From: Perkinsus olseni
Lineage: Eukaryota
DNA length: 64,000 nucleotides
Assembly: GCA_013115125.1 (NCBI GenBank)
Contig: JABANN010000028.1
Coordinates: forward strand, 1-64,000
Direction: 5' to 3'
Shown: in pieces, positions 59,884-64,000 of the stretch
How positions within the stretch are numbered: the stretch's first letter is position 1
How the letters are laid out: every line of letters starts with the position of its first letter
The notes under the pieces: generated by a model
Told to the model about the DNA's origin: nothing
What the model saw: the letters and a program-made list of their open reading frames with translations, nothing else
Databases searched by the model: none
Position numbers and translations under genes: made by a program

Positions 59884-62800
59884 ATGTCCCTACCATCCTT
59901 AGCAGTGTCCTACTCGCAAGAGGACTGGGCCTTCATGCTCGATGATGCCGATCGATATGCAGTCACTGTGGTCTTCATGGTACTTGGCCGAGGCCATAGT
60001 TCTGTCTTGGTCGACTTGACGCCCCTGTTTAGATCGGACTGGCCATATGCCTGTTCGTAATTGATGAGTTCCGCGGCACCCGGCCGAAGGCTTCGGCAGC
60101 GTTCATGCCGGTTTTCTATCCAGATGAGAGTATTCCATGGTAAGAGCGGGGTCTCTGGGTGGGGTAATGATTTTGGAGGCATCAGGGCAAAACTGAACGA
60201 CTATGAGTACTTCTCTGGGCTTTTTGGCCTCGGTATTCGTAAGTGGGGCCTGTGGAAGTGGGCTACGAAGGTAGTTCGCCGCAGCGCAACTAAGTCAACC
60301 AAAAGTAGTGGACTAAGTTAAGCCCGCTAGAGTTGGACTTTGACTTATCAGAGTCGGAAGGCGAGGAAGACGAGCATTCTTATCGTGACATGGACCTACC
60401 CTGGACCACGGTTGTGCATGCGTACATCGGGTATATGGTACTGTTCATAAAGGGGATACTACGAGAGTGTCTCTGGACTGTAACGTTCAACAAGAATAAG
60501 AATGCCAGCGAGAACTGGTGCCCGCAGTGGTGGAAGGAGTTCTATACTCAGCACATGTAGGAAGGGGTGATAGTGCTCTCTAGTCTGTCTATTCATAGAA
60601 TGTCGGCTGGGTTCACCATGCTCCCAGTTGGAGTCTCAGGCATCCGTGCTTGCTCTTAGGTACCGAAGGATCGAAGACTGCTGGAATCGGCCTATTTGTT
60701 CAGCACCGGGCAGCACCATTGATGTGATGTCTGCCTTTCGACCTGCGTGTTACGTGCCGGGGTGGCTTTAGATACTCGTACGTTCTCGCCACGATCACAT
60801 GGCCAAGCGTTTTGGGAAATTCCAACCGACTGGAGAGGTTCAGAAAGGTTGCATCAATCTGGCTTCTTACAACTACCTAGGTTTTGGAGGGACAGATGAA
60901 TACTGTAGTGAAGATCCTCGATCCTCGCAGAGTATCTTTAGGTCAACCTCAGGCACTCCGCTGGCGATCAAAGCACTGGATCAGTATGGATTGGCAGTTT
61001 GCGCGTCGAGGCCAGAATACGGAGGTAGCCTCCCACCCTTCCTCAGTTATTCCCCAGTGGTCGTTCATCAGGAACGAATAGACTTCACAACGAGTTCGAA
61101 GCCAAGGTGGCTGCGTTCTTGGGGAAAGAAGATGCCTTAGTCATGGGCATGGGCTTTGCCACTAACAGTAATACTCAGGGACGGTTCCGGTGGGTGGGCG
61201 CCTCTGTGACGTGGTAGTGTAAGCATACTGTTCGCTCAGCCTTGAGGACTGTGGATGTTGTTCCGATCGAAATTCCGATTCGGAATTATCCCTAGCGAAC
61301 GTGGCTGGTACTCTTCCAAGAGCGCTAGTGATCGTGAATATTAGTATTCTTGCCCGTAATCGTGTGCCTTCGTCGAGCGAGAGAGATCCCTATGCTATCG
61401 TACGGGGATGACTACGCAGCACACAGGCCATCTCAGACATTGCTCGCTACAGGTACCTTCCTCGGTGCCTTGGCGATGACCGAGTGCGGATCATTAGCTA
61501 AGAGGGTAGTGCCAATATCTTACTTGTGTTGCCTTGCTTCATCACAGCCTCTGGTGCAGCTCTGTCACTCTGACGAAGGGATGTCCCGGAGGTATCAGTT
61601 GAGGATCGACTTCGTTTTCAGACCCTTTTTGTCTCCGATCAACTTAATCATAAGTCGATCGTGGAAGGTGTTAAGCAGAGCAGCGCCAAGGTCATTGGCT
61701 TTAAGCACAACAATATGCATGACCTTGAAAAAATTTTGGATAGAGAAACTCGTAATTTTCATACGTGCTGACACCAACTCCTCCGGGAATCGTGTGAATT
61801 CAGGCTCGGGTAAATGGGCGAAGATTGTTATACTGGTGGAGGGCATATATTCCATGGAAGGCGAGTTCTGTCGATTGAGAGAATCGGTATGTCCACGCTT
61901 CTTCGATCGCCCTGGCCCTTTGCGCATTCACAGTGACGGTCAGGTTTCTTTAAAGAACAAGTACAAATGTTATCTCTGGTTGGACGAGGCTCACTCGATT
62001 GGAGCAGTCGGGCCTACTGGAAGGGGCGTTTCTGAGCTCTTCGATGTTGGTAATAACTTATCACCAACTATTGCCGTGTCTCATTACCTACAAGACAATA
62101 GCCGATGCCGATCGATGGAAGTGCGCAGTCGACCGCTCTCGAATCTGATATCTACTAGGTGGCTACTACACCTCTGCCGTTTCTTCGTGGGTTTCTTCCT
62201 GCCGTAGCTTAATTTTTCGCGTAGAACAGTGTTGTTCGCGATGGAAGAACGAGTGTGGTTATCGTGATAGAGTCGACGGTGCAGATACGTCTGAGATCGA
62301 CATTATGATGGGGACTTTCACCAAGTCCTTCGGTTCCAACGGCGGTTATATCGCCAGTACCAACGAGTGCATTCAGGTGGGTCTTACTTCCGATGCCAAC
62401 CACGTCCCCCAGTGATGCCTTCTTTCAGCACCTTCGTCGCTGCTCCTTGGGTTGGTTACACGGTGCAGCGATGCCGCCAATGGTCACAGCACAGGCCATG
62501 GCTGCTTTAGATCTACTCTCGACCGAGCGAGGCAAGGCTAAGGTATGGGGAGCCTCCGAAGAGATCTTCGGGGTGGATGCTTTCTGGCAGTTACGTGCAG
62601 TGCGGGTGAACGCCAACTACCTTCGTGAAGGTCTGATGAAACTTAACCTGCGGGTCATCGGCGATATCGACTCTCCCGTCATCTGCGTTATGCTGGTAAG
62701 CTCTGCGCCGTCGCTGCTGTCGTGTATCATGCCTCGGCAGGTTCATCCGGAGAAGATCGCACAGTTTTCCCGAGAGTGCCTGGAGAGGAACATTGCGGCT

Positions 62801-64000
62801 GTTGTGGTACGTCCCGAGAAGCCTTCACTGTCCTGATTCTGCATGAGGCATTGCTCAGGTTGGATATCCAGCAACCCCAGTTATCCTGTCTCGTGCCCGC
62901 TTCTGTGTGAGCGCTAGTCACACCAAGGAGCAACTGGACGCCACGCTAGAGGCTGTGAAGGAGGTCTCTAAAATCGTTGGTAGTGCCACCTCGTGGTCTC
63001 CAGAGGTCCATTGACTCTGTTCTAGACATCGAGTATGGCAACAACACGAATGAGTCAGCAGCGCGGGCATACAGGACGTACCTGTCCGAAGCCCCGATCA
63101 TTACCAACCCTTTGCCGGGCTTGGAGACCTACTGGAACCCCGAGCCTCTTGTCCCTAACTACACTGATACAGAGAGGGAGAGCTTGTCAAGCAAGAGTGA
63201 GCAGTGACGATGGCTTATGGGACGGTTAAGCAGTGGCGGTGCCTATCGGGACGGTTGCCATCCCGCATGATGGACTTTTATTCGAGCGGCGTGCCGGATG
63301 ATGGGAGATTTTAATAGTGATGCGGGGTCTCCCAAGCATTTCTAGTTCTCTTGCAGAGCTTCGAAGATTTCATCCCACTGTGGTTGAGATCTAGCTCGAT
63401 GTTCTGGGCCGTAGTATGCATGGATTGGTGCCTCAATAGGTACATCTGCAACCAGTTCTCCTCGAGACGGCCGCTCGAGTGAGTCCGAAGATGAGCGACG
63501 CGACTCCTTGGTCGATTTTGCCACCATTGATCCATTGTCCCTTCAACACAAGCCTGATGAGAAGTTGATGGAGGTGGCTAGATCTGTCGTCAGGGCGAAG
63601 GGCGTTGGTGCGTGCGGACCGAGGGGCTTCTATGGTACGCTGGGGTTCTCGGCGGACTCATCGTTGACCTCGGAATGGCGTAGGTACCACGGTGGAGCAC
63701 TTGGACTTGGAGAAGGCTATCTCGGAATTCCTTGGCACCGAGGCAGCTATCGTGTACAGTCATCACACAGTGTCCGACTCTAGTGTGGTAAGTCGTGGTG
63801 ACTGCGCTGGCTCAGCTCCTGTGTTGTATCAAGCTTCATTTGATCGTGGGGGGAAGTTCGTCCATGTTCTTGGAATTTTGTGGCGCGCGGTCATGGTTGC
63901 CGATGGTCATCAGATTCAAGCGTTCATCACTAAGAACGACTTCGCTATCGTCCATAAGGATGCCAACGCACATATGTGCACCGGTCTCAACCTCTCTCGT
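59884..64000 (+). CDS. Serine palmitoyltransferase, single-chain LCB2-LCB1 fusion (truncated by window end)
   Basis: LCB2 half: [70 protein letters not shown]1 half: [34 protein letters not shown]. Confidence 0.9.

What the first reader, a model, noticed from the sequence alone, without database searches (positions are those of the whole stretch)
59884..64000. Single-chain LCB2-LCB1 serine palmitoyltransferase fusion
A full LCB2 with the PLP-lysine motif GTFTKSFG (62311-62334) runs through ...EVSKIV|DIEYG... without a stop into the LCB1 hallmark WNPEPLVP (63133-63156). A phase-compatible intron (about 63197-63439) then leads to [10 protein letters not shown]...[13 protein letters not shown]...[13 protein letters not shown]. 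No separate start or TM helix for LCB1 is visible. Most eukaryotes use two genes; an LCB2-LCB1 single chain is established for the coccolithovirus EhV enzyme. An intron-rich cellular version here raises questions of independent fusion versus transfer. It apparently lacks the LCB1 N-terminal helix used for ORM regulation and has a long N-terminal extension with its own hydrophobic segment.
Basis: partly seen in the sequence, partly recalled or inferred. Interest (0 to 1): 0.8.

Follow-up and report, generated by a model that had tools for sequence, protein, structure and literature searches.

The report
Single-chain serine palmitoyltransferase of Perkinsus
This oyster and clam parasite makes the first enzyme of sphingolipid synthesis as one fused LCB2-LCB1 protein from one spliced mRNA; the fusion is real, but it belongs to a family of fused enzymes already in the databases for many protists and for the coccolithovirus.

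Summary
Confirmed, but not new in kind. The window is Perkinsus olseni. The gene matches a GenBank protein named serine palmitoyltransferase exactly, across 23 GT-AG exons.

- **One transcript.** RNA contigs from 4 runs of 4 studies remove the 46-nt intron 62980-63025. That joins the LCB2 half to the LCB1 half. They also remove intron 63197-63439, so the TGA at 63205 is intronic.
- **5' end.** The mRNA begins with a spliced-leader tail at the acceptor before 59838. GenBank's 93 extra N-terminal residues are unsupported.
- **The two halves.** The N half resembles human SPTLC2 and keeps the PLP lysine. The C half aligns to SPTLC1 only from residue 60, has His at the lysine position and has no transmembrane helix.
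- **Family.** All 113 fused relatives found have the same domain order. They include other Perkinsus species, a dinoflagellate, Amoebophrya, Ostreococcus, Entamoeba, Mastigamoeba, Mastigella and EhV.
- **Origin.** All 43 sampled fused proteins form one clade in both half-trees, so one fusion event is the likeliest history. Perkinsus groups with uncultured eukaryotes and other alveolates, not with EhV.

This scan earlier noted the same architecture in Ostreococcus (e1-560335).

The parts
59836..59837 (+). AG acceptor for spliced-leader trans-splicing (5' end of the mature mRNA body at 59838)
   Evidence: table 7: the contig of X3 ends here with the loose letters CTTGGCTCA. With the genomic AG these give the 3' end of PmaSL1, ACCGTAGCCATCTTGGCTCAAG (PMC3101222, passage).
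59838..59883 (+). 5' UTR (46 nt, no ATG)
   Evidence: Read. The RNA contigs start at 59836 (table 8).
59884..59979 (+). First coding exon (GenBank exon 3 from its ATG); start of the 1040-aa protein (MSLPSL...)
   Evidence: The P. marinus model P0002 starts at the same residue.
59956..60065 (+). Extra N-terminal transmembrane helix (P0001 residues 118-136), split by intron 59980-60032
   Evidence: Kyte-Doolittle 2.4 over 19 residues. Helix 12-46 in the model of P0002, at low confidence.
60033..60139 (+). coding exon 4
60186..60304 (+). coding exon 5
60352..60556 (+). Coding exon 6; holds the conserved LCB2 membrane helix (residues 219-237, 60405-60461)
60660..60723 (+). coding exon 7
60772..60904 (+). 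coding exon 8
60953..61024 (+). coding exon 9
61072..61167 (+). coding exon 10
   Evidence: The joint on its 3' side is among those not displayed.
61453..61505 (+). coding exon 11
61622..61751 (+). coding exon 12
   Evidence: contig pieces 61621-61751 table 8.
61804..61886 (+). coding exon 13
61944..62049 (+). coding exon 14
62285..62376 (+). Coding exon 15 with the PLP-lysine motif GTFTKSFG (62311-62334; Lys codon 62323-62325)
   Evidence: This Lys is invariant in 60 of 60 fused proteins (K435 of P0002).
62429..62542 (+). coding exon 16
62591..62695 (+). coding exon 17
62741..62806 (+). coding exon 18
62859..62979 (+). Coding exon 19: C-terminal end of the LCB2 half (...EVSKIV)
62980..63025 (+). 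Junction intron, 46 nt, GT..AG, phase 1. Its removal joins the LCB2 half to the LCB1 half. Unspliced, the frame stops at 63012-63014.
   Evidence: The joint 62978>63025 (cut +1) is seen in all 4 runs.
63026..63196 (+). Coding exon 20: linker of about 32 residues plus the LCB1 hallmark WNPEPLVP (63133-63156). No in-frame ATG.
   Evidence: Aligns to human SPTLC1 from residue 60.
63197..63439 (+). 243-nt intron holding the in-frame TGA at 63205-63207
   Evidence: The joint 63196>63440 is seen in all 4 runs.
63440..63634 (+). Coding exon 21: Ser/Glu-rich insert, then the LCB1 core ([13 protein letters not shown])
   Evidence: The insert is disordered in the model (pLDDT 49-68).
63684..63787 (+). 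coding exon 22
63914..64000 (+). Coding exon 23, cut by the window end at residue 866 of 1133 of P0001
59205..59478 (+). GenBank exons 1-2 (59205-59333 and 59375-59478; 93 aa, coiled-coil-like). Probably not part of this mRNA.
   Evidence: maps them. The spliced-leader junction at 59838 lies downstream of them. In X1 a co-linear, unspliced contig covers 59092-59636 at about a tenth of the gene's word depth.

Best explanation
The locus is the Perkinsus olseni gene for a single-chain serine palmitoyltransferase, the first enzyme of sphingolipid synthesis.

Shown:
- One SL-trans-spliced mRNA carries at least 21 exons in the window, with the ATG at 59884. It encodes about 1040 residues.
- The order of parts is: an N-terminal extension of about 120 residues with one strongly hydrophobic helix; a complete LCB2-type alpha-oxoamine synthase domain with its membrane helix and the PLP lysine; a linker of about 32 residues; then an LCB1-type domain. 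The LCB1 domain begins at its WxPEPLVP segment, has His in place of the PLP lysine, and lacks the LCB1 transmembrane helix.

Inferred:
- The two halves fold back on each other as an intramolecular copy of the LCB1/LCB2 heterodimer. It has one active site at the interface and condenses serine with an acyl-CoA to 3-ketosphinganine on the cytosolic face of the ER.
- Loss of the LCB1 helix follows from topology. The LCB2 C-terminus and the LCB1 catalytic domain are both cytosolic, so a single helix between them could not be kept.

The gene belongs to one fused LCB2-LCB1 family that also holds the characterised coccolithovirus enzyme. Within that family it was probably inherited vertically among alveolates.
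For: - **Gene model.** P0001 (GenBank, P. olseni) maps exactly on 23 GT-AG exons.
- **Transcript.** Spliced contigs of 4 runs from 4 studies, two of them single 3834-nt contigs, run from 59836 through both halves. All 15 of 15 listed joints match the model.
- **Spliced leader.** The loose end CTTGGCTCA plus the genomic AG equals the 3' end of PmaSL1.
- **Domains.** Pfam finds two Aminotran_1_2 stretches. The N half (216-686) matches human SPTLC2 66-541 at E 1e-123. The C half matches SPTLC1 from residue 60 at E 9e-49.
- **Catalytic residues.** The Lys of GTFTKSFG is invariant in 60 of 60 fused proteins. The LCB1 half reads SLEHAFGS at the aligned place, against human NMENALAS, and keeps the Cys of [13 protein letters not shown].
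- **Fold.** The AlphaFold2 model of the P. marinus ortholog (89% identical) has pLDDT 81.9 and pTM 0.85 over the whole 1047-residue chain. Foldseek gives TM 0.89 to the SPTLC2 chain and 0.80 to the SPTLC1 chain.
- **Family.** 113 of 401 stored proteins are fused, all in LCB2-LCB1 order and none reversed.
- **Co-linearity.** One co-linear BLAST alignment crosses the junction to EhV-86 (39% over 801 aa), Ostreococcus (35% over 897) and E. histolytica (32% over 915).
- **Trees.** 43 of 43 fused halves lie in one clade, with SH-aLRT 99 in the LCB2 tree (85 rows) and 95 in the LCB1 tree (133 rows). The inner groupings are similar in both.
- **Activity of the family.** The EhV fused enzyme complements SPT-less yeast (PMC6148460, passage).
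Against: - No enzymatic or genetic data exist for the Perkinsus protein.
- All RNA evidence is from assembled contigs, which drop rare isoforms. A minor internal SL-capped LCB1 mRNA is not excluded.
- The last 267 residues lie outside the window. They were taken from the GenBank protein, not from this DNA.
- The intramolecular pairing rests on a predicted model whose coordinates I could not inspect. A domain-swapped dimer of two chains would give the same scores.
- The fused clades contain non-fused rows. In the LCB2 tree these are P0139, which looks like a contig-end fragment, and P0224, a complete-looking 472-aa LCB2. In the LCB1 tree it is P0345, a canonical LCB1 with its own helix, at the unresolved base.
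- Trees used the quick search under LG+G4. The canonical LCB2 rows are the 120 hits most similar to the query out of 4218, so ciliate, kinetoplastid and other divergent LCB2s were not sampled.
Confidence: 0.9

Rival explanations
1. There are two adjacent genes, LCB2 and LCB1. The apparent fusion is a gene-prediction artefact, with LCB2 ending at the stop at 63012-63014 or at the TGA at 63205, and LCB1 made from its own SL-capped mRNA.
For: Unspliced, the LCB2 frame does stop at 63012-63014. Perkinsus uses SL trans-splicing, which could in principle resolve a polycistron (PMC3101222, abstract and passage). Two EhV strains carry the halves as two genes (PMC5371807, passage).
Against: Contigs of all 4 runs splice out 62980-63025 and 63197-63439. 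The WNPEPLVP frame has no Met, and the first in-frame Met of the LCB1 half lies after that motif. No SL-like loose end was reported near 63026 or 63440. Orthologs in three Perkinsus species and about 110 relatives are fused in the same way.
Confidence: 0.03
2. The fused gene reached Perkinsus recently by transfer from a coccolithovirus-like giant virus, or the other way round, rather than by descent within alveolates.
For: EhV and two giant-virus contigs (L001, L002) encode the same architecture. The family is spread patchily over distant supergroups, which calls for some transfer somewhere.
Against: In both trees Perkinsus is sister, with SH-aLRT 99, to a group of uncultured sequences. One of these lies on a gene-dense contig with cellular eukaryotic housekeeping genes (cystathionine beta-synthase, MFAP1, UAA transporter). 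Next come Amoebophrya and dinoflagellate-type sequences. EhV is a separate long branch. The Perkinsus gene has 20 spliceosomal introns in the window and two paralog groups about 60% identical. Identity to EhV is only 39%.
Confidence: 0.05
3. The fusion is real, but this copy is not a classical serine/palmitoyl-CoA enzyme. It is one of several Perkinsus paralogs with another amino-acid or acyl-CoA preference, as the viral enzyme differs from its host's.
For: Perkinsus has at least two fused paralog groups (P0001/2/4 and P0005/6/7, about 60% identical). The EhV enzyme prefers myristoyl-CoA (PMC6148460, passage).
Against: The LCB2 half is 45-49% identical to canonical plant and cnidarian LCB2 and keeps the columns that are invariant in 60 fused proteins. 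Nothing in the sequence points to a changed substrate, but specificity cannot be read from sequence here.
Confidence: 0.2

Closest known systems
Single-chain LCB2-LCB1 serine palmitoyltransferase of coccolithovirus EhV-86 (870 aa; stored here as P0406/P0375). Described as a natural chimera that complements SPT-less yeast (PMC6148460 section 2.3, passages; the primary paper, Han et al. 2006, was not held).
   Same: Same domain order. The PLP lysine is in the N half only, and there is no helix between the halves. One co-linear alignment crosses the junction (39% over 801 aa). Both fall in the same clade in both half-trees.
   Different: The Perkinsus protein has about 110 extra N-terminal residues with a transmembrane helix, and a Ser/Glu-rich disordered insert after WNPEPLVP. 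It is a cellular gene with 20 introns in the window and an SL-capped mRNA. It is not the virus's nearest relative: in BLAST the EhV-type ORFs are closest to the PAP2-tailed environmental group.
Heteromeric eukaryotic SPT: human SPTLC1/SPTLC2/ssSPTa/ORMDL3 (for example 7K0M, 6M4N), Arabidopsis LCB1/LCB2a/SPTssa/ORM1 (7YJK), yeast SPOTS (8C80)
   Same: Both catalytic-core domains are present and alignable nearly full length. For SPTLC2, E is 1e-123 and TM 0.89. For SPTLC1, E is 9e-49 and TM 0.80. The LCB2 membrane helix and the Cys equivalent to the Cys of [13 protein letters not shown] in human SPTLC1 are kept.
   Different: It is one polypeptide. Residues 1-59 of SPTLC1, which hold its transmembrane helix, have no counterpart. 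In Arabidopsis that helix is domain-swapped in the SPT-ORM1 dimer (PMC10058238, passage). Whether small subunits or ORM proteins exist in Perkinsus was not tested.
Other database members of the fused family: P. marinus (1047 and 1042 aa), P. chesapeaki, Polykrikos kofoidii, Amoebophrya spp., Ostreococcus mediterraneus (1417 aa with a PAP2-type tail), Entamoeba spp. (883 aa), Mastigamoeba balamuthi, Mastigella eilhardi
   Same: Same architecture and same clade. P. marinus is 89% identical and starts at the same Met.
   Different: The extra N-terminal helix (Kyte-Doolittle 1.9 or more) occurs in Perkinsus 2 of 2, the uncultured sister group 4 of 4, dinoflagellate-type 8 of 11, Amoebophrya 1 of 2 and the PAP2-tailed group 2 of 6. 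It is absent in Ostreococcus-type 0 of 5, Archamoebae-type 0 of 9, EhV 0 of 1 and three ungrouped rows 0 of 3. Some rows without it have short, possibly truncated N-termini.

Membership tests
LCB2 / SPTLC2 (catalytic subunit of eukaryotic SPT, alpha-oxoamine synthase) | Full-length similarity to solved LCB2/SPTLC2 | tested here: met
   P0001 216-686 matches human SPTLC2 66-541 at E 1e-123; Arabidopsis LCB2a and yeast Lcb2 match likewise. Foldseek TM 0.89, rmsd 2.2 A, 45% identity.
LCB2 / SPTLC2 (catalytic subunit of eukaryotic SPT, alpha-oxoamine synthase) | PLP-binding lysine in the T-x-K-S-F-G motif | tested here: met
   GTFTKSFG at 62311-62334. The Lys is invariant in 60 of 60 aligned fused proteins.
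LCB2 / SPTLC2 (catalytic subunit of eukaryotic SPT, alpha-oxoamine synthase) | N-terminal membrane helix ahead of the catalytic core | tested here: met
   Residues 219-237 of P0001, Kyte-Doolittle 1.49. Helix 125-152 with pLDDT 76-85 in the model of P0002.
LCB1 / SPTLC1 (non-catalytic subunit) | Similarity to solved LCB1/SPTLC1, stronger than to LCB2 | tested here: met
   The C half scores 169.7 bits against SPTLC1 and 91.8 bits against SPTLC2. It falls in the LCB1 side of the tree, split at SH-aLRT 100.
LCB1 / SPTLC1 (non-catalytic subunit) | No PLP lysine; WxPEPLV and [13 protein letters not shown] motifs | tested here: met
   SLEHAFGS aligns with human [16 protein letters not shown] and [13 protein letters not shown] are present.
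LCB1 / SPTLC1 (non-catalytic subunit) | N-terminal transmembrane helix (the domain-swapped helix that sits in the ORM-containing complex) | tested here: not met
   The alignment starts at SPTLC1 residue 60. Between the halves, no 19-residue window reaches a Kyte-Doolittle mean of 1.4 in any of the 43 fused proteins scanned (maximum 1.37). The C half is therefore an LCB1 domain, not a free-standing LCB1 subunit.
Single-chain LCB2-LCB1 SPT (EhV ehv050 type) | Both domains in one reading frame and one transcript, LCB2 first | tested here: met
   Exact exon map. Spliced contigs in 4 of 4 runs. Same order in 113 of 113 fused relatives.
Single-chain LCB2-LCB1 SPT (EhV ehv050 type) | Homology with the viral enzyme across the junction, and common descent of both halves | tested here: met
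   One alignment, query 127-914 against EhV-86 16-748. Fused clade at SH-aLRT 99 (LCB2 tree) and 95 (LCB1 tree), with 2 and 1 non-fused rows inside or at the base.
Single-chain LCB2-LCB1 SPT (EhV ehv050 type) | SPT activity of the single chain (yeast complementation, 3-ketosphinganine formation) | not testable with these tools
   Shown only for EhV (PMC6148460, passage).

The most novel reading that the evidence does not exclude
The fused SPT arose once and then crossed between eukaryotic supergroups: alveolates, Archamoebae, mamiellophyte green algae and coccolithoviruses, probably with haptophytes too. Giant viruses are a plausible vehicle.

In the alveolate-centred subclade, a new N-terminal transmembrane helix was added. 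It may take over the membrane-anchoring, dimerising and ORM-contact role of the lost LCB1 helix. If so, Perkinsus would regulate sphingolipid synthesis by a route different from the ORM/LCB1-helix mechanism of animals, plants and yeast.
Probability: 0.3. Interest if true: 0.55.

Novelty: new member of a known kind. Interest (0 to 1): 0.3.

Why it matters
- **For the enzyme.** SPT is the rate-limiting, tightly regulated entry step of sphingolipid synthesis. A natural single chain without the LCB1 helix is a ready-made minimal enzyme. It could be used to ask what that helix, the small subunits and ORM proteins add.
- **For the parasite.** Perkinsus olseni and P. marinus are damaging parasites of clams and oysters. 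An SPT built differently from the host's two-subunit enzyme is a reasonable drug-target candidate.
- **For annotation.** The spliced-leader junction shows that the GenBank P. olseni model starts 93 residues too early.
- **For evolution.** Both halves of all sampled fused proteins form one clade, so the coccolithovirus enzyme is one twig of a wide cellular family and not a viral oddity. I found no paper in the held library that describes this spread. Monier et al. 2009, Han et al. 2006 and Ziv et al. 2016 could not be read and may already say so.

Tried and rejected
- **Whole genome.** None is held for this window. I could not look for stand-alone LCB1 or LCB2, ORM, or small-subunit genes in P. 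olseni.
- **Papers not held.** Monier 2009, Han 2006 and Ziv 2016. What they say about cellular fusions is unknown to me. Supplements are closed, and Table S2 of PMC5371807 may list the Perkinsus hit in detail.
- **Literature searches.**
  - 'serine palmitoyltransferase' with 'Perkinsus' gave 1 paper.
  - Searches for fused SPT in Ostreococcus or E. huxleyi gave nothing on cellular fusions. I judged this from the listings plus passages of PMC5371807, PMC6148460, PMC5519370 and PMC10583209.
- **A viral sister group.** I tested whether the nearest non-Perkinsus relatives (the P0008/P0009 group) are viral. The scan of viral contigs with P0009 found none. The one metagenome contig found, L003, carries cellular eukaryotic genes. 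The idea was rejected.
- **ESM Atlas look-up** of P0009 gave only generic SPT clusters and no taxon.
- **Rfam scan** of 58000-64000 found no match at E 0.1 or below, so the long introns hold no known RNA family.
- **Uncovered stretch.** In X2, X3 and X8, nothing covers 58684-59787. This fits the GenBank exons 1-2 not belonging to the mRNA, but lack of cover in contigs is not evidence.
- **Naming canonical rows next to the fused clade.** Only 1 of 10 carried an organism name (P0305, Hondaea fermentalgiana). The donor lineage of the two halves stays open. The LCB2 tree puts the fused clade in an unresolved fork with the green-plant LCB2 clade (SH-aLRT 94). I do not build on that, because the canonical sample was chosen by similarity to the query.
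- **Complex prediction.** No job was sent. Two copies of the chain exceed the size limit, and no partner was in hand.

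
Full report
**What is in the sequence**

The region 59.8-64.0 kb holds many short coding pieces separated by GT..AG gaps of about 45-55 nt. GTFTKSFG is at 62311-62334, WNPEPLVP at 63133-63156, the TGA at 63205-63207 and the ATG at 59884.

The LCB2 frame does not run open into LCB1. Unspliced, it stops at 63012-63014. A 46-nt GT..AG intron (62980-63025, phase 1) has to be removed to join ...EVSKIV to DIEYG...

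**Identity and gene model**

The 56-residue junction exon finds, at 100% identity, a 1133-aa GenBank protein. It is named 'serine palmitoyltransferase, long chain base subunit [Perkinsus olseni]'. At 75% identity it finds a 1047-aa P. marinus protein. The window is therefore P. olseni.

Threading the GenBank protein on the DNA places residues 1-866 letter for letter on 23 GT-AG exons. Fifteen of the 22 introns measure 41-57 nt. The rest measure 103, 116, 126, 235, 243, 285 and 359 nt. The junction intron is of the ordinary size for this gene. The window ends inside the LCB1 half.

**Transcripts**

Twenty-four public runs hold 25-46% of the sampled words of 59000-64000. That is about what the exons alone would give. 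I laid contigs of four runs from four studies; two are on record as RNA.

- All four skip every listed intron. All 15 of 15 listed joints coincide with the exon map, and 6 more joints were not displayed.
- These include 62980-63025 and 63197-63439, so the TGA at 63205 is intronic.
- In X2 and X3 a single 3834-nt contig runs from 59836 through both halves and out of the window.
- At 59836 the X3 contig continues with the loose letters CTTGGCTCA. Together with the genomic AG this is the 3' end of the published P. marinus spliced leader PmaSL1, ACCGTAGCCATCTTGGCTCAAG (PMC3101222, passage).
- The reverse complement of the same nine letters hangs on a minus-strand contig end at 58558. The letters are therefore a shared leader and not local sequence.

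The mature mRNA thus starts at 59838. The stretch 59838-59883 has no ATG, so translation starts at 59884. The P. marinus model begins at the same residue.

The first two exons of the GenBank P. olseni model (59205-59478, 93 residues) lie upstream of the trans-splice site. They probably belong to something else.

These are contigs, not reads. They show that the joined form exists. They do not show that a rare internal SL-capped form is absent. Against a separate LCB1 message, the WNPEPLVP frame has no Met, and the first Met of the LCB1 half comes after that motif.

**The two halves**

Pfam sees two Aminotran_1_2 stretches.

| | N half | C half |
|---|---|---|
| Best solved match | Residues 216-686 against human SPTLC2 66-541, E 1e-123; also Arabidopsis LCB2a and yeast Lcb2 | Human SPTLC1, 169.7 bits, against 91.8 bits for SPTLC2 |
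| Where the alignment starts | Near the LCB2 membrane helix | SPTLC1 residue 60, at L-x-x-x-W-x-PEPLVP |
| Position of the PLP lysine | Lys, invariant in 60 of 60 aligned fused proteins | His (SLEHAFGS, against human NMENALAS) |
| Other conserved features | Membrane helix at residues 219-237 | Cys of [13 protein letters not shown] kept |

The first 59 residues of SPTLC1 include its transmembrane helix, and they have no counterpart here. In the Arabidopsis complex that helix is swapped between protomers of the SPT-ORM1 dimer (PMC10058238, passage).

A hydropathy scan finds no segment of Kyte-Doolittle 1.4 or more between the halves in any of 43 non-redundant fused proteins (maximum 1.37). It finds a strong helix (2.4) about 100 residues ahead of the conserved LCB2 membrane helix.

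**Fold**

An AlphaFold2 model of the P. marinus ortholog (89% identical) was built with a 60-sequence alignment. It has mean pLDDT 81.9 and pTM 0.85 for the whole 1047-residue chain.

- The linker and WxPEPLVP segment are confident (pLDDT 81-95).
- The Ser/Glu-rich insert after that segment is disordered (49-68).
- The first 120 residues are of low confidence.
- Foldseek aligns the model to SPTLC2 chains at TM 0.89 and to SPTLC1 chains at TM up to 0.80.

A pTM this high for a two-domain chain suggests that the halves are placed against each other as in the heterodimer. I could not inspect the coordinates, so this step is an inference.

**Mechanism**

Shown: one mRNA, one reading frame, a complete catalytic LCB2 domain and a lysine-less LCB1 domain.

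Inferred from the known heterodimer: the LCB1 domain completes the single active site of the LCB2 domain within the same chain.

The loss of the LCB1 helix is what topology demands. The LCB2 C-terminus and the LCB1 catalytic domain are both cytosolic in the solved complexes, so a single membrane pass between them could not be kept.

**How common the fusion is**

A search with the junction region (residues 560-960), restricted to long proteins, returned 106 hits. With cluster members and the profile search, 113 of 401 stored proteins carry both domains. All have LCB2 first and none is reversed.

Named members are:
- P. olseni, P. marinus (two copies) and P. chesapeaki
- the dinoflagellate Polykrikos kofoidii
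- Amoebophrya
- Ostreococcus mediterraneus (1417 aa)
- Entamoeba invadens, E. histolytica, E. dispar and E. nuttalli
- Mastigamoeba balamuthi and Mastigella eilhardi
- the coccolithoviruses EhV-86, -88, -99B1, -201 and -203 (870 aa)

Two giant-virus contigs in IMG/VR carry EhV-type ORFs of 875 and 870 aa.

Perkinsus itself has two paralog groups about 60% identical.

**Independent fusion or one family?**

I cut 43 non-redundant fused proteins (80% identity filter, from 91 complete ones) into halves and built two trees.

- **LCB2 tree.** It has 85 rows: 43 fused, 37 canonical at 65% non-redundancy, and 5 LCB1 as outgroup. All 43 fused halves lie in one clade with SH-aLRT 99. Two non-fused rows sit with them. 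P0139 ends in the linker at the end of a 2.8-kb contig and looks truncated. P0224 is a complete-looking 472-aa LCB2.
- **LCB1 tree.** It has 133 rows: 43 fused, 85 canonical and 5 LCB2 as outgroup. All 43 lie in a clade with SH-aLRT 95. One canonical LCB1 that has its own helix (P0345) sits at the unresolved base.
- **Shared groupings.** Both trees recover:
  - Perkinsus with an uncultured group (SH-aLRT 99);
  - an Amoebophrya pair;
  - a dinoflagellate-type group;
  - a group with PAP2 tails;
  - an Ostreococcus-type group;
  - an Entamoeba group.
- **Co-linearity.** A single co-linear BLAST alignment crosses the junction between Perkinsus and EhV-86, Ostreococcus, Mastigamoeba and Entamoeba.

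One fusion event, with both halves evolving together since, is the simplest reading.

Perkinsus is not close to the virus (39% identity). Its nearest non-Perkinsus relative lies on a gene-dense contig with cellular eukaryotic genes. Descent within alveolates is therefore more likely than a recent viral gift.

Limits: the trees used quick searches under LG+G4. The canonical LCB2 rows are the 120 most query-like of 4218 hits, and most rows are unnamed.

**The N-terminal helix**

The extra helix is not a family feature. It belongs to the subclade that holds Perkinsus, counted at Kyte-Doolittle 1.9 or more:

| Group | Proteins with the helix |
|---|---|
| Perkinsus | 2 of 2 |
| Uncultured sister group | 4 of 4 |
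| Dinoflagellate-type | 8 of 11 |
| Amoebophrya | 1 of 2 |
| PAP2-tailed | 2 of 6 |
| Ostreococcus-type | 0 of 5 |
| Archamoebae-type | 0 of 9 |
| EhV | 0 of 1 |
| Ungrouped rows | 0 of 3 |

Several proteins without the helix have very short N-termini and may be truncated models. Whether this helix replaces the lost LCB1 helix is speculation.

**Novelty**

- The EhV chimera is textbook (PMC6148460, passages).
- P. marinus SPT is named among its best database hits (PMC5371807, passage). That is the only held paper that mentions both Perkinsus and the enzyme.
- The gene is annotated in GenBank for three Perkinsus species.
- This scan earlier reported the Ostreococcus member (e1-560335).

This is a confirmed new member of a known kind. 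The smaller additions are the SL-defined start, the clade-specific helix and the one-clade result for both halves.

I could not read Monier 2009, Han 2006 or Ziv 2016. They may already describe cellular fusions.

Noticed in passing
window 59205-59478 (and 58735-59636): The GenBank P. olseni SPT model starts with two exons (93 aa, coiled-coil-like) that lie upstream of the spliced-leader junction at 59838. In run X1, co-linear contigs cover 58735-59025 and 59092-59636 at about a tenth of the SPT word depth. They do not remove the annotated 41-nt intron. This could be a separate small gene or an outron.
   Followed up: partly
window 58558, minus strand: A contig of X2 ends here with the loose letters TGAGCCAAG, the reverse complement of the spliced-leader tail. 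A minus-strand gene therefore has its trans-splice site at about 58558, some 1.3 kb from the SPT site and pointing away from it.
   Followed up: no
proteins P0028, P0029, P0033, P0036, P0037, P0043, P0044, P0055, P0062; P0061 (Ostreococcus): Many environmental fused SPTs of 1075-1518 aa (nine rows) carry a Pfam PAP2 (PF01569) domain behind the LCB1 half. The Ostreococcus protein (1417 aa) has several hydrophobic segments in its tail.
   Followed up: no
protein P0006 (P. olseni, 1300 aa): The second P. olseni paralog is annotated with a tetraspanin domain (PF00335) and three hydrophobic segments behind the SPT. This is probably a merged gene model.
   Followed up: no
L001 5941-8568 and L002 5956-8568: Two IMG/VR giant-virus contigs encode uninterrupted fused SPTs. 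L002 (870 aa) is 98% identical to EhV-201. L001 (875 aa, a giant-virus MAG) is only 75% identical, so it is a more distant coccolithovirus-like lineage with the same gene.
   Followed up: partly
L003 (metagenome contig, 15.4 kb): This is a gene-dense, apparently intron-poor eukaryotic contig. It carries CN hydrolase, cystathionine beta-synthase, NIF phosphatase, MFAP1 and a UAA transporter. Its 1024-aa fused SPT is 73% identical to P0009, a member of the sister group of the Perkinsus enzymes, which share the N-terminal helix. The organism is unknown.
   Followed up: partly
P. marinus model P0002, residues about 808-826: The P. marinus model has a short hydrophobic stretch (Kyte-Doolittle 1.94) where P. 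olseni has a shorter polar sequence. The AlphaFold2 model has pLDDT under 50 at 818-822. This is probably a retained intron in the P. marinus annotation.
   Followed up: no
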